Origin: Faecalibaculum rodentium
GTDB lineage: Bacteria; Bacillota_I; Bacilli_A; Erysipelotrichales; Erysipelotrichaceae
NCBI RefSeq assembly: GCF_001564455.1
Contig: NZ_CP011391.1
Span: 570,001 to 602,000 of the forward strand
Reading direction: 5' to 3'
Length of the DNA: 32,000 nucleotides
Shown one piece after another: positions 10,302-11,761 of the stretch (its first letter is position 1; every line of letters starts with the position of its first letter). Under the pieces are notes generated by a model, which saw only the letters and a program-made list of their open reading frames with translations, did no database searches and was not told the origin of the DNA. The position numbers and the translations under genes are program-made.

Positions 10302-10580
10302 TTAACAATTAATTTTTGCCGCACGGAATATATAGTACAGTACCCACGGCGCAAATATATATTCAATATCCTCAATGTTTCTGAAGGTTTGGACATCAAA
10401 TTTTCCCTTTTCGGGATTCCATATCCGAAGATTATCATCATTGCAGAGAGCGGGAACAACTGTCATTAGAAATACTATCATCTGCCGGTCGGATAATTGT
10501 TCTGGGTCTAATTCATTTGAAGCACAGATAGCTTCGTAGTCTTTCTGATGAGTGGCAGTAATAAATTGTAGCTGATCCAT
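10302..10580 (-). CDS. Small acidic hypothetical protein (92 aa)
   Basis: ORF lies 31 nt downstream of the preceding gene with its own RBS. It has 14 D/E versus 8 K/R. No family recognised. Confidence 0.5.
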   Translation of the reverse strand: MDQLQFITATHQKDYEAICASNELDPEQLSDRQMIVFLMTVVPALCNDDNLRIWNPEKGKFDVQTFRNIEDIEYIFAPWVLYYIFRAAKINC

Positions 10581-10610
10581 TTTGCATTCTCCTACAGTAA
10601 TGATAGTTAA

Positions 10611-10955
10611 TTAGATAGCCGGCGTCACTATGGCTTCCAATATCGGTATCCAAAATGGGTACTCACTGACTGATCCAGCGATTTCAATAGCTTGAGTATC
10701 ATGCTCATTATCCAAATACGAAGAAACTTTCAGATACTGGTCTAGGTTTATCTCATGTCCAAGGATTTCTTCTACAGACATCCAGTTATCGGCATCATAG
10801 CCGTTTGGAATAAAATTCGCGTCCCGTTCTAGGATAAATAGTTTTGTCAGCCAGGGGGTATCGGGATCATAGTTCTCCCAATCTAGAATTCCTACAGCTT
10901 TCAGGATAGCAATCATCTCGTCCCGAGAGAAAACAAGTACATTGGTTTGATTCAT
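10611..10955 (-). CDS. Small strongly acidic hypothetical protein (114 aa, about 20 D/E vs 5 K/R)
   Basis: ATG 10955 follows the RBS ataaggagag of module copy 2. Composition was counted by hand. Confidence 0.55.
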   Translation of the reverse strand: MNQTNVLVFSRDEMIAILKAVGILDWENYDPDTPWLTKLFILERDANFIPNGYDADNWMSVEEILGHEINLDQYLKVSSYLDNEHDTQAIEIAGSVSEYPFWIPILEAIVTPAI

Positions 10956-11128
10956 CAGTAACTCTCCTTATCGTCCTTACGCGGACTTCACTTTTTCCAC
11001 GGCTGCAGCCCTCAATCCAGTCAACGGCGCGAAGCGTTCAGTTTACCGTTGACCGATCTGAGGTGGGCGGCGATAGAAGACCCTAAGATTCATAAAAACC
11101 ATAGGCTTCATATCAGCCATAAAAAGGC
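10956..11128 (-). promoter_or_regulatory. Hairpin-leader module copy 2 (hairpin about 11001-11072; TTGACC 11049-11054; apical GCGAAGC)
   Basis: It shares a 33-nt identical apical core (11020-11052) with copy 5. The sense leader is GAAAAAGTGAAGTCCGCGTAAGGACGATAAGGAGagttactgATG. Confidence 0.7.
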
Positions 11129-11132
11129 TATA

Positions 11133-11160
11133 ACAAACAAAAGCGGGGTGACCCGCTTTT
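11133..11160 (-). terminator. Rho-independent terminator after the 198-aa ORF
   Basis: aagcggg-gtga-cccgctt stem. Minus-strand tail is ttttgtttgt. Confidence 0.7.
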
Positions 11161-11167
11161 GTAATGG

Positions 11168-11761
11168 TCAGCACTCCTCGAAAAAGAAGAGATTGCCAGA
11201 CTCATTTCTGTATTCCAAACTATCATCAATCTCACTGATGGCATCATCAAGATGTGCCCAAGGGACCGGTTTCCCAAGCCACTTAACCATTGAAAAGTTG
11301 GAGAAGTGAGCTTCATCCCAGTCTTTCTGCCAATCGTAATCGTTTAGCTGGTACACCAATTTCATTTCCTGCCAGCTGTCATAATAGTTATAAAGTTGAT
11401 TGATGCAGGTATGGTTATCTAGATAGATTGTAGAGGTTCCCTCTGCCCACCTCTCAGAGTATGCAATCTGTTCCGCTGAAACCGCCACAAGTCCTTCATT
11501 CCTGTTCTTTGCAATTGGAATATCCTCATCAGGCCACCGCCGTTTTGCAAACTCTTCATCCTCGGGTGTTAATCCTCCACCGTTTTTGGCCAGTCCATAA
11601 ATAATTGCCAAAACGGGGTCAGTTTTTTCTGATGTTTCAATAATGTCAGTCAGCTTTTGCATCTCTCGGTAAGCATCCAGAGTATTCGCAGACCAATGAA
11701 AATAAACATTACAAATTTCAATTCCGCCTTTTTCAATGCTAACAACTAATCTCGCTCCCAT
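11168..11761 (-). CDS. Acidic, Trp-rich hypothetical protein (198 aa)
   Basis: Start set at ATG 11761 (caaggaggaattgaaATG, MGARLVVSIEKGG...). The track ORF start at 11848 would read through the hairpin module. About 36 D/E versus about 17 K/R. Confidence 0.55.
   Translation of the reverse strand: MGARLVVSIEKGGIEICNVYFHWSANTLDAYREMQKLTDIIETSEKTDPVLAIIYGLAKNGGGLTPEDEEFAKRRWPDEDIPIAKNRNEGLVAVSAEQIAYSERWAEGTSTIYLDNHTCINQLYNYYDSWQEMKLVYQLNDYDWQKDWDEAHFSNFSMVKWLGKPVPWAHLDDAISEIDDSLEYRNESGNLFFFEEC

What the first reader, a model, noticed from the sequence alone, without database searches (positions are those of the whole stretch)
10302..11761. Three small, strongly acidic orphan proteins as first cargo behind the hairpin promoters: candidate DNA-mimic / anti-defence factors
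Three ORFs are acidic by hand count and have no motif I can assign.
- 10611-10955: 114 aa, about 20 D/E versus 5 K/R
- 10302-10580: 92 aa, 14 versus 8
- 11168-11761: 198 aa, about 36 versus about 17, Trp-rich

They occupy the position where ArdA, Ocr-like mimics, PsiB or anti-CRISPRs are found in leading regions of other plasmids. Small size, strong net negative charge and early-entry location are the classic profile of DNA mimics that block restriction or other nucleic-acid-sensing defences. The assignment is inference only.
Basis: inference. Interest (0 to 1): 0.7.

Follow-up and report, generated by a model that had tools for sequence, protein, structure and literature searches.

The report
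Early-entry cargo genes of a conjugative element
Three acidic genes sit behind fold-back DNA "promoter" repeats in the part of a gut-bacterium mobile element that probably enters a new cell first; two have no relatives anywhere, the third belongs to a large unnamed family shared by phages and mobile elements, and none resembles a known DNA mimic.

Summary
They lie in a low-GC integrated mobile element of Faecalibaculum rodentium, on the side of the putative oriT opposite the relaxase. They form two units of a five-unit array. Each unit is a ~150-nt hairpin repeat, a conserved leader with an RBS, one or two genes, and a terminator.

- **114-aa and 92-aa ORFs:** true orphans, found only in F. 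rodentium. They have good ribosome-binding sites and in-frame codon bias. The 92-aa protein is only mildly acidic.
- **197-aa ORF:** not an orphan. It belongs to an unnamed family of 558 cluster representatives found in gut Firmicutes, integrated elements and 119 IMG/VR contigs.
  - Motifs MGQRL, YHWSAY, RNxGL and WxEG are nearly invariant.
  - The acidity lies mostly in a variable C-terminal half.
  - The AlphaFold model is confident (pLDDT 95.9) and has no solved structural relative.
- **Sister strains:** these carry an extra cassette with a 48%-identical paralogue. The deletion junction lies inside the hairpin repeat.

Early, transient expression as establishment or counter-defence cargo is plausible but unproven. 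The DNA-mimic reading has no specific support. Acidity is common among such genes.

The parts
10302..10580 (-). 92-aa ORF, second gene of cassette B. Mildly acidic (net -6, pI 4.5). Orphan restricted to F. rodentium.
   Evidence: - ORF and translation.
- Composition.
- RBS TAGGAGA 7 nt upstream of ATG.
- Best codon score in the annotated frame.
- Only F. rodentium clusters, at 99-100% identity.
- No family hit.
- Weak local match to one WD40 blade of Rsa4 (E=0.002), judged to be chance.
10611..10955 (-). 114-aa ORF, first gene of cassette B. The most acidic protein in the window per residue (20 D/E, 5 K/R, pI 4.05). Rich in aromatic residues. Orphan.
   Evidence: - ORF, sequence and composition.
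- RBS AAGGAG.
- Codon score.
- Only F. rodentium clusters.
- No tblastn hit in plasmids.
- No PDB sequence hit.
- No hit among ORFs of 18 related loci (phmmer --max).
- Single-sequence AlphaFold model unusable (pLDDT 44.7).
10262..10294 (-). Terminator-like hairpin followed by a T run (AAATGGGGCAT-GATATA-ATGTCCCATTT-TTGAG) just after the 92-aa gene. It marks the end of cassette B.
   Evidence: Read directly from the sequence. It fell below the GC-pair rule of the scan.
10960..11105 (.). Hairpin repeat B with conserved leader and RBS, upstream of the 114-aa gene. In this strain it is a hybrid of two hairpins and folds poorly.
   Evidence: - Aligned with the other four copies.
- Fold z-score -0.85 on the + strand and -0.94 on the - strand.
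- The left arm equals the hairpin of the 202-aa cassette in sister locus L019. The right arm equals the hairpin of the 114-aa cassette there. The crossover lies in the shared 33-nt core: (D8).
- The intact L019 hairpin in front of the 114-aa gene folds with z -7.6 and -5.5.
11137..11162 (-). Intrinsic terminator (11-bp stem followed by a T run) directly after the 197-aa gene. It marks the end of cassette C.
11168..11761 (-). 197-aa gene, the single gene of cassette C. It is a diverged member of a large unnamed acidic family carrying the motifs MGQRL, YHWSAY, RNxGL and WxEG.
   Evidence: - Exhaustive phmmer search: 558 representatives at E<=1e-3 and 85 at E<=1e-10.
- Alignment A2 and conserved columns.
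- AlphaFold2 pLDDT 95.9, pTM 0.90.
- No PDB or BFVD structural relative of known function.
- No hit in Pfam, NCBIfam, PHROGs or PADLOC.
11770..11919 (.). Hairpin repeat C with conserved leader and RBS, upstream of the 197-aa gene.
   Evidence: - Repeat family D2 and alignment A1.
- ssDNA fold z -5.4 (+ strand) and -4.8 (- strand).
- Compensatory pairs.
10109..10258 (.). Hairpin repeat A, upstream of the DUF2786/DUF7168 gene (9440-10102). Context: the unit nearest the putative oriT.
12613..12762 (.). Hairpin repeat D, upstream of two tandem 102-aa SSB-like genes (12297-12605 and 11965-12273). Context.
14360..14500 (.). Hairpin repeat E, upstream of the 234-aa and 316-aa genes. Context.
8935..9440 (.). 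Putative oriT region between mobC and the leading-region genes. It holds three TGTGGATACA direct repeats and a GC-rich inverted repeat.
   Evidence: The sequence is. MobC and the relaxase lie immediately to the left. The position is inferred; no nic site was identified.

Best explanation
**What it is.** The three ORFs are genuine genes. They form two of five promoter-leader-gene-terminator cassettes (six in sister strains). The cassettes lie in the leading region of an integrated conjugative or mobilisable element of Faecalibaculum rodentium.

**Proposed mechanism (inferred).**
1. During transfer the window's + strand enters the recipient 5'->3' from an oriT at about 8.9-9.4 kb.
2. Each ~150-nt imperfect palindrome folds on that single strand.
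3. The fold places a TTGAC(G) -35 box beside the loop. It also places a TAtAAg-like -10 hexamer, which exists only on the far arm, at the stem base.
4. Host RNA polymerase then transcribes the genes from the incoming strand before the complement is made.
5. Once the DNA is double-stranded, the sense strand has no usable -10 box and expression stops.

**The cargo.** It includes SSB-like proteins, a DUF2786/DUF7168 protein and these acidic proteins.

**The 197-aa protein (shown).** It is a soluble two-part protein. Its near-neutral core is conserved, with invariant Arg4, His22-Trp23-Ser24, Arg87-Asn88-x-Gly90 and Glu107. Its C-terminal half is variable and very acidic. The family is shared by phages and integrated elements.

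**Its most likely role (inferred).** It helps establishment by binding a host protein or a small nucleotide-like ligand through that conserved pocket. This would be counter-defence or host takeover, not imitation of DNA.

**The 114-aa and 92-aa proteins.** These are lineage-specific cargo of the same kind. Their targets are unknown.

**Cassette turnover.** Cassettes are gained and lost by recombination within the hairpin repeats.
For: **Genes are real.**
- ORFs, ribosome-binding sites and in-frame codon bias.
- The proteins recur on hundreds of contigs: 208 for the 197-aa protein, 286 for the 114-aa protein and 408 for the 92-aa protein.

**Mobile-element setting.**
- GC is 0.40-0.47 up to about 17 kb and 0.54-0.59 beyond.
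- The element carries a relaxase, MobC, ParA, ParB and SSB. The flanking gene is a chromosomal penicillin-binding protein.
- Sister loci add SpaA/TED adhesins.
- A scan of one genome per species with the relaxase found no relative.

**Leading-side inference.**
- The relaxase operon points away from the 500-bp repeat-rich intergenic region.
- Relaxases are typically in the lagging region (PMC11541004).
- All cargo genes point toward the oriT, so the transferred strand is their template.

**Hairpins.**
- Five aligned copies.
- ssDNA fold z-scores of -5 to -8 for four of the five.
- 12 of 21 stem pairs show compensatory double changes.
- The scan found no sigma-70-like site on the sense strand upstream of any cassette.
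- TTGAC(G/C) lies next to the loop on both arms. A TATAAG, TAGAAA, TAGAAG or CATAAA hexamer lies 18-23 nt downstream on the far arm only (sequences).
- A terminator follows each unit.

**Analogy.** Multi-operon ssDNA-promoter arrays with transcription starts mapped by 5'-RACE are described in pESBL and F (PMC12672017).

**The 197-aa family.**
- 558 relatives with conserved motifs.
- Family median pI 4.37 and median net charge -20.
- Acidity is concentrated at residues 101-180.
- The model is confident.
- Members occur in 17 species genomes and 119 IMG/VR contigs.
- Members sit in long same-strand arrays of small acidic ORFs.
- Neighbours include orphan D12 and C5 methyltransferases, RadC, DUF3846, DUF932, PcfJ and NAD-salvage enzymes.
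- There is no conserved partner gene.

**Turnover.** A 48%-identical paralogue with its own hairpin is present in sister strains. The deletion junction lies inside the hairpin core.
Against: - No expression or functional data exist for any of these genes.
- The nic site and the transferred strand are inferred, not shown. In pLS20 the transferred strand turned out to be the non-template strand (PMC8708921).
- The hairpins fold about equally well on either strand. The intact hairpin in front of the 114-aa gene in L019 is 6 kcal/mol more stable on the sense strand.
- The -35 to -10 spacing on the far arm is 18-23 nt, longer than canonical. Bulges shorten it only partly.
- The hairpins have no sequence similarity to anything in PLSDB, which includes F-like plasmids. 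They are therefore at best analogues of Frpo.
- In this strain the hairpin in front of the 114/92 unit is a hybrid that barely folds better than shuffled sequence. If the hairpin is the promoter, that unit may be poorly expressed here.
- In most other loci, family members sit inside tightly packed operons with no hairpin.
- Many neighbours of family members are plain phage genes. Context therefore shows association with mobile elements, not anti-defence function.
Confidence: 0.55

Rival explanations
1. One reading: the proteins are DNA mimics of the ArdA, Ocr or Arn type. Their negative surface would imitate the DNA backbone and block restriction enzymes or other DNA-binding defences.
For: - Strong net negative charge of the 114-aa protein (-15) and the 197-aa protein (-19).
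- The 197-aa family has 25-32% D/E and only 5-11% K/R across residues 101-180.
- The location is the one where ArdA-type genes are found in other elements (PMC11541004).
- Nothing excludes this reading for the 114-aa protein, which could not be modelled.
Against: - No Pfam hit at E<=0.1, so none of the three matched a Pfam model for ArdA, Ocr, Antirestrict or PsiB.
- The confident model of the 197-aa protein has no Foldseek match to any solved chain, which would include known DNA mimics.
- Family conservation lies in a near-neutral core with invariant Arg, His, Trp, Ser and Asn. Acidic positions are mostly not conserved column by column.
- 15-35% of small ORFs in comparable regions are equally acidic.
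- The 92-aa protein is only mildly acidic.
- The 114-aa protein is 12% aromatic, which suggests an ordinary globular core.
Confidence: 0.12
2. The hairpin repeats are not promoters. They could be single-strand origins or priming sites, recombination hot spots, or transcript-level structures. On this view the ORFs are ordinary accessory genes expressed from the double-stranded element, for example immunity or antitoxin-like proteins, or regulators of transfer, with no role against host defence.
For: - The hairpins fold equally well on both strands, and one is clearly better on the sense strand.
- The -10 spacing is not canonical.
- Frpo-type elements also prime DNA synthesis (PMC12672017).
- A cassette boundary coincides with the hairpin core.
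- In pLS20, similar-looking upstream repeats were judged not to be ssDNA promoters.
- Family members elsewhere lie in operons without hairpins.
Against: - The repeat unit includes a conserved leader and RBS placed precisely before each first gene. This fits a promoter-leader module better than an origin.
- The scan found no sigma-70-like site on the sense strand upstream of any unit, yet each unit has its own terminator. Some promoter must therefore lie in the repeat.
- SSB-like genes, the classic partners of ssDNA promoters, occupy one unit.
Confidence: 0.25
3. The 114-aa and 92-aa ORFs are not functional genes. They would be recent, decaying or spurious reading frames that happen to be acidic.
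For: - No homologue outside one species among 5.8 billion sequences.
- Variants are 98-99% identical, so no selection signal can be read.
- Their hairpin is damaged in this strain.
Against: - Both have strong ribosome-binding sites at the correct spacing, a 30-nt gap typical of an operon, and a terminator after the second gene.
- The codon score is positive only in the annotated frame, with GC1>GC3>GC2 as in the neighbouring genes.
- Both reading frames are intact in all six sister loci.
Confidence: 0.08

Closest known systems
Leading-region early (zygotically induced) genes driven by Frpo/ssi single-strand promoters in F, ColIb-P9 and pESBL
   Same: - The genes lie on the oriT side opposite the relaxase.
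- All genes are oriented with the presumed T-strand as template.
- There are several independent units, each preceded by a long imperfect hairpin carrying a -35 box.
- SSB genes are among the cargo.
- Cargo is variable and largely uncharacterised (PMC11541004; PMC12672017).
   Different: - The host is a Gram-positive (Erysipelotrichaceae) chromosomally integrated element, not an enterobacterial plasmid.
- The hairpins have no sequence similarity to any PLSDB plasmid.
- The repeat also carries a conserved leader mini-hairpin and RBS.
- The -10-like hexamer lies 18-23 nt from the -35 box.
- No recognisable ArdA, KlcA, PsiB or methyltransferase cargo is present.
- Function as a promoter is not shown.
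ArdA / Ocr DNA-mimic anti-restriction proteins
   Same: Small, cytoplasmic and strongly acidic, with pI near 4. Encoded in early-entering DNA.
   Different: - No sequence similarity.
- No fold similarity for the 197-aa protein.
- Conservation is centred on a basic and aromatic pocket, not on acidic arrays.
Establishment-gene operons of pLS20-family plasmids (EGeRS1/EGeRS2 regulons)
   Same: - A Firmicutes conjugative element.
- Multiple operons are each preceded by the same conserved repeat-containing regulatory sequence.
- Cargo differs between close relatives and is mostly of unknown function (PMC8708921).
   Different: - EGeRS1 sequences are 400-600 bp and were judged not to be ssDNA promoters, because the transferred strand is the non-template strand.
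- EGeRS2 uses a repressor.
- Here the repeats are ~150-nt single hairpins, and gene orientation is compatible with template-strand transfer.
Integron gene cassettes (attC hairpins)
   Same: - A same-orientation array of short gene units separated by imperfect palindromes that fold as single strands.
- One unit is present or absent between strains, with the junction inside the palindrome.
   Different: - No integrase was recognised nearby.
- The palindromes lack the attC core sites (read from the sequence).
- Each palindrome carries promoter-like boxes and an RBS.
- The junction lies in a 33-nt stretch identical between two repeats, so ordinary homologous recombination explains it.

Membership tests
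ArdA (anti-restriction, DNA mimic) | Sequence match to the Pfam ArdA domain | tested here: not met
   No Pfam family at E<=0.1 for any of the three proteins. None for 69 members of the 197-aa family at E<=0.01 either.
ArdA / Ocr / ArdB-KlcA / PsiB / solved anti-CRISPRs | Fold similarity to a solved member | tested here: not met
ArdA / Ocr / ArdB-KlcA / PsiB / solved anti-CRISPRs | Fold similarity, for the 114-aa and 92-aa proteins | not testable with these tools
   There are no homologues for an alignment. Sequence search of the PDB gave no hit for the 114-aa protein. For the 92-aa protein it gave only a chance-level match to a WD40 blade.
DNA-mimic proteins in general | Surface array of carboxylates with DNA-like spacing, conserved across the family | tested here: inconclusive
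At sequence level only 7 of 194 columns are >=70% D/E, while invariant positions are Arg, His, Trp, Ser, Asn and Gly. The acidic C-terminal half remains compatible with a charged surface.
Frpo-type single-strand DNA promoter | Long imperfect hairpin upstream of the gene, with structure under selection | tested here: met
   Five copies. Fold z-scores of -5 to -8 for four of them. 12 of 21 pairs carry compensatory changes.
Frpo-type single-strand DNA promoter | -35 and -10 boxes reconstituted in the stem at functional spacing | tested here: inconclusive
   TTGAC(G/C) lies beside the loop in all copies. TATAAG, TAGAAA, TAGAAG or CATAAA lies on the far arm only, 18-23 nt away, with 3-nt bulges on that arm (sequences and structures).
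Frpo-type single-strand DNA promoter | The hairpin lies on the transferred strand, which is the template of the downstream genes | not testable with these tools
   Inferred from the relaxase/MobC position and gene orientation. Folding energies do not discriminate between strands.
Frpo-type single-strand DNA promoter | Sequence homology to known Frpo/ssi elements | tested here: not met
   blastn (word size 11) of hairpin D against 72,556 plasmids gave no match.
Unnamed MGQRL / YHWSAY family (defined here) | Full-length homology and the conserved motifs | tested here: met
   - phmmer gave 558 relatives, almost all 185-215 aa among the 150 listed.
- The window protein keeps M1, G2, R4, L5, Y20, H22, W23, S24, G61, G63, R87, N88, G90, W105, E107 and G108.
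- It differs from the consensus at Q3->A, Y21->F and Y26->N.
Known anti-phage defence systems (PADLOC) | Match to a defence-protein model | tested here: not met
   No PADLOC hit for the three proteins or six neighbours.

The most novel reading that the evidence does not exclude
The 197-aa protein represents a large, unnamed protein family shared by phages and conjugative elements. Its predicted fold has no solved relative, and it carries an invariant pocket (MGQRL, YHWSAY, RNxGL, WxEG). On this reading the family is a new class of early-expressed counter-defence effector, either an enzyme or a sponge for a nucleotide-like ligand. In this element it and the two orphan genes would be delivered from self-contained hairpin-promoter cassettes. 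These cassettes would be shuffled between strains by recombination inside the hairpins, forming a promoter-carrying, integron-like cassette system in a Gram-positive conjugative element.
Probability: 0.3. Interest if true: 0.75.

Novelty: new variant of a known kind. Interest (0 to 1): 0.5.

Why it matters
- **Cargo discovery.** Leading-region early genes are a rich, mostly uncharted source of counter-defence functions. Almost all detailed work concerns enterobacterial plasmids.
- **A Gram-positive case.** This is a compact, well-delimited example from a gut Firmicute. Its hairpin units mark which genes are probably expressed first.
- **A tractable family.** One cargo gene opens onto a family of several hundred sequence clusters in gut phages and integrated elements. 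The family has no name in Pfam, NCBIfam, PHROGs or PADLOC, and its confidently predicted fold has no solved relative.
- **A natural experiment.** Strains with and without the paralogue cassette, and with an intact or a hybrid hairpin, allow a test of whether the hairpin drives expression.
- **Limits of acidity as a clue.** The result also shows that acidity and small size alone are weak grounds for calling a DNA mimic.

Tried and rejected
**Searches and tests that returned nothing**
- Pfam, PHROGs, NCBIfam and PADLOC on the three proteins: no hit.
- The same libraries on 69 members of the 197-aa family: only stray single hits.
- PDB sequence searches, single and profile: nothing meaningful.
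- megablast of the 5.5-kb region against plasmids: nothing.
- tblastn of the 114-aa and 197-aa proteins, and of a central family member (P0057), against plasmids: nothing.
- tblastn against GenBank phages: one unannotated record only.
- Species-genome scan with the relaxase: no relative.
- phmmer --max of the two orphans against 1,313 ORFs of related loci and against all window ORFs: nothing.
- Motif strings of the family searched in the paper library: no paper.
- Exact-pattern scans for the hairpin leader in metagenome and viral collections: only this element.
- Rfam and tRNA scans: nothing in the element region.

- The single-sequence AlphaFold model of the 114-aa protein. I therefore did not run a fold search on it.

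**Hypotheses checked and rejected**
- AcrIIA11, a widespread gut Firmicutes anti-CRISPR of similar size, was checked as a candidate identity for the 197-aa family. Its sequence, taken from the supplement of PMC6739867, is unrelated.
- A conserved partner gene downstream of family members: none found.
- Using G-T wobble asymmetry or folding energy to decide which strand folds: contradictory between copies.
- Integron-like attC sites: rejected as the main reading. No integrase was recognised, the core sites are absent, and the junction lies in a stretch identical between two repeats.
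Full report
**1. The observation**

The three ORFs exist at the stated coordinates, all on the minus strand.

| ORF | Length | D+E / K+R | pI | Other |
|---|---|---|---|---|
| 10302-10580 | 92 aa | 14 / 8 | 4.5 | |
| 10611-10955 | 114 aa | 20 / 5 | 4.05 | |
| 11168-11761 | 197 aa | 36 / 17 | 4.43 | 8 Trp |

- The mechanical ORF list starts the third ORF at GTG 11848. The ATG at 11761 follows GGCAAGGAGG and matches the invariant N-terminus of its family.
- The other two ORFs also have AGGAG-type ribosome-binding sites 7-8 nt upstream.
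- A codon model trained on the element's other genes scores each ORF positively only in its annotated frame. GC1>GC3>GC2, as in the neighbouring genes.
- I conclude that all three are real genes.

**2. Where they are**

- GC content is 0.40-0.47 up to about 17 kb and 0.54-0.59 beyond.
- The low-GC part encodes, all on the minus strand:
  - a MobA/VirD2-type relaxase (6897-8471);
  - MobC (8476-8934);
  - ParA, a ParB-like protein and an SSB.
- The high-GC part begins with a class A penicillin-binding protein.
- All three proteins occur only in Faecalibaculum rodentium. Their longest contig is 2.54 Mb, and they appear on hundreds of metagenome contigs.
- Sister loci show SpaA/TED surface-adhesin genes further along the element.
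- A relaxase scan of one genome per species found no relative.
- This is therefore an accessory, integrated conjugative or mobilisable element.
- The 500-bp intergenic region in front of mobC (8935-9440) holds three TGTGGATACA repeats and a GC-rich inverted repeat. It is the likely oriT.
- Relaxases normally lie in the lagging region next to oriT (PMC11541004). The DNA to the right of 9440 is therefore probably the leading region. Its genes all point toward the oriT, so the transferred (+) strand would be their template. This step is inference; no nic site was identified.

**3. The cassette array**

- Five copies of a ~150-nt element lie at 10109-10258, about 10960-11105, 11770-11919, 12613-12762 and about 14360-14500.
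- Each copy is an imperfect palindrome followed by a conserved leader (AAAGTGAGGACCGCACAAAGCGG, itself a mini-hairpin) and an AAGGAG RBS. The start codon follows immediately.
- As single-stranded DNA, four copies fold far better than shuffled sequence, with z-scores of -5.0 to -8.1.
- Across seven copies, counting two from a sister strain, 12 of 21 stem pairs keep pairing through changes on both sides.
- An intrinsic terminator follows each unit, at 11162-11137, 11966-11945, 12797-12776 and 9428-9414. A weaker one follows the 92-aa gene.
- The consensus scan found no sigma-70-like site on the sense strand upstream of any unit.
- TTGAC(G/C) sits next to the loop on both arms. A -10-like hexamer (TATAAG, TAGAAA, TAGAAG or CATAAA) sits only on the far arm of the + strand, at the stem base, 18-23 nt from the -35 box. 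That arm carries 3-nt bulges.
- This is what a single-strand promoter of the Frpo type would look like, and the arrangement of several such operons resembles pESBL and F (PMC12672017).
- Three points weaken the reading:
  - the spacing is long;
  - both strands fold about equally well;
  - there is no sequence similarity to any PLSDB plasmid.
- The units, in order from the oriT, are:
  1. a DUF2786/DUF7168 gene;
  2. the 114-aa and 92-aa genes;
  3. the 197-aa gene;
  4. two 102-aa SSB-like genes;
  5. a 234-aa and a 316-aa gene.
- The three ORFs are therefore the second and third units, not the first.

**4. Cassette turnover**

- The closest relative of the 197-aa protein (P0007, 202 aa, 48% identity) lies in other F. 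rodentium assemblies. There the same element sits at the same chromosomal site.
- P0007 forms an extra unit between the 197-aa and 114-aa genes.
- Alignment of the window to L019 shows two collinear blocks of 99-100% identity. The break lies within the hairpin.
- The window's hairpin B has two origins. Its left arm comes from the 202-cassette hairpin, and its right arm from the 114-cassette hairpin. The two are joined in a 33-nt core that is identical in both.
- In L019 the intact hairpin in front of the 114-aa gene folds with z -7.6. The hybrid in the window folds no better than chance, with z -0.9.
- The window strain is therefore most simply a deletion derivative. If the hairpin is the promoter, the 114/92 unit may be weakly expressed in this strain.

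**5. The two orphans**

- The 114-aa and 92-aa proteins have no relative outside F. rodentium among 5.8 billion sequences.
- Further searches also found nothing:
  - the 114-aa protein by tblastn against plasmids;
  - both against the PDB, apart from a chance-level match of the 92-aa protein;
  - both in a sensitive local search of related loci;
  - both in Pfam, PHROGs, NCBIfam and PADLOC.
- Known variants differ by single residues only, so selection cannot be measured.
- AlphaFold without an alignment gave an unusable model for the 114-aa protein (pLDDT 44.7).
- Their function cannot be addressed beyond their context.

**6. The 197-aa protein is not an orphan**

- An exhaustive HMMER search found 558 cluster representatives at E<=1e-3 and 85 at E<=1e-10. 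Nearly all of the 150 listed are 185-215 aa.
- An alignment of 69 members shows near-invariant positions:
  - M1-G2-Q3-R4-L5;
  - Y20-Y-H22-W23-S24-A-Y26;
  - G61 and G63;
  - R87-N88-x-G90-L91;
  - W105-x-E107-G108.
- Acidity is a family trait: median pI 4.37 and median net charge -20.
- The acidity lies mostly at residues 101-180 (25-32% D/E against 5-11% K/R). That region is poorly conserved in sequence. The conserved core is nearly neutral.
- AlphaFold2 with this alignment gives pLDDT 95.9 and pTM 0.90.
- Foldseek finds no solved relative (best E=0.38, TM<=0.2). Against viral models it finds only weak matches to uncharacterised proteins.
- No Pfam, NCBIfam, PHROG or PADLOC model covers the family, and no paper prints its motifs.
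- It is not AcrIIA11.

**7. Where the family lives**

- Members occur in 17 species-representative genomes. These are mostly Clostridia and Bacilli, including Streptococcus sanguinis and Neobacillus.
- Members occur in 119 IMG/VR contigs, many of 70-170 kb from gut samples.
- Members occur in one of 50,697 GenBank phage records and in none of 72,556 plasmids.
- They lie in long same-strand arrays of small, often very acidic ORFs.
- Neighbours include orphan D12 and C5 methyltransferases, RadC, DUF3846, DUF932, PcfJ, GP88, retron or intron reverse transcriptases, NAD-salvage enzymes, anti-repressors and phage packaging genes.
- There is no conserved partner gene.
- This is the setting of accessory early genes of phages and conjugative elements. 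It supports a role in the life of the mobile element but does not identify that role.

**8. Interpretation**

These are probably early, transiently expressed establishment genes.
- The DNA-mimic part has no specific support:
  - there is no sequence or fold similarity to any known mimic;
  - conservation in the 197-aa family points to a pocket of Arg, His, Trp, Ser, Asn and Glu residues, not to an array of carboxylates;
  - acidity is common in such regions, where 15-35% of comparable ORFs are equally acidic.
- My best reading is that the 197-aa protein binds a host protein or a nucleotide-like ligand through the conserved pocket. The two orphans would be lineage-specific cargo of the same class.
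- My estimates are about 0.55 for the overall early-cargo model, about 0.4 for an anti-defence function specifically, and about 0.1 for DNA mimicry.

**9. Novelty and score**

- The kind of system is known: leading-region early genes behind single-strand promoters.
- This variant is not described. It is a Gram-positive integrated element with hairpin-leader-RBS cassettes unrelated in sequence to Frpo. The cassettes are shuffled by recombination within the hairpins and carry unnamed cargo.
- The unnamed family with a confident fold that has no solved relative is the most valuable lead.
- Without any functional evidence I score interest at 0.5.

Noticed in passing
window 10960-11105; L019 9835-9980 and 10640-10785: Sister F. 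rodentium assemblies carry an extra hairpin plus 202-aa paralogue cassette between the 197-aa and 114-aa genes. The window's hairpin B is a hybrid of the two flanking hairpins, joined in a shared 33-nt core, and it folds poorly.
   Followed up: yes
window 13720-14073: There is a perfect-register tandem duplication of 177 nt (93% identity) inside the 234-aa gene. It duplicates a coiled-coil-like segment. ORF structure in this stretch differs between sister loci (L021, L023).
   Followed up: partly
window 11965-12273 and 12297-12605; also 4062-4502: Two tandem 102-aa SSB-like (OB-fold) paralogues, 70% identical in DNA, share one hairpin unit. Neither has a C-terminal tail. A third, longer SSB lies next to parA. 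A paper on ICESt3 reports two OB-fold proteins acting in relaxosome assembly (PMC12614216), which may be relevant.
   Followed up: no
window 9080-9170: Three direct repeats of TGTGGATACA and an inverted repeat (GGGGCTCGGGGTAACACCCCGA) lie in the 500-bp gap upstream of mobC. This is the candidate oriT, with accessory-protein binding sites.
   Followed up: partly
window about 16472-16474; L019 4374-4483: The window lacks about 110 bp that L019 has. The 275-aa ORF at the edge of the element in sister strains is split here into 92-aa and 107-aa ORFs (16395-16953).
   Followed up: partly
window about 16960-17000: GC content steps sharply from about 0.46 to about 0.58. This is the element boundary, next to the penicillin-binding protein gene (16985-19534). 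No integrase or tRNA was recognised within the window.
   Followed up: partly
window 20743-21094 (+), 23684-23784 (-), 27068-28947 (+): Three RNA features lie in the chromosomal part: RNase P RNA class B, a TPP riboswitch, and a group II intron. The intron spans domains D1-D4 to D5/6 and has a 437-aa reverse-transcriptase ORF at 27524-28837.
   Followed up: no
L016 vs L017; L007 vs L008: Nearly identical arrays carrying the family member are assigned to very different MAGs: Bacilli versus Methanobrevibacter, and 'archaeon' versus Bacteroidales. This suggests mis-binning of a mobile element or an unusually broad host range.
   Followed up: no
alignment A2 (197-aa family): The first five residues, M-G-Q-R-L, are almost invariant across 69 diverse members. 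Such conservation of an N-terminus is unusual and remains unexplained. The window protein has A at position 3, and its paralogue P0007 starts MSKRL.
   Followed up: partly
window 10302-10580: Residues 45-87 of the 92-aa protein give a weak match (E=0.002) to a single WD40 blade of Rsa4 (motif LRIWNPEKGK). It is probably chance.
   Followed up: no
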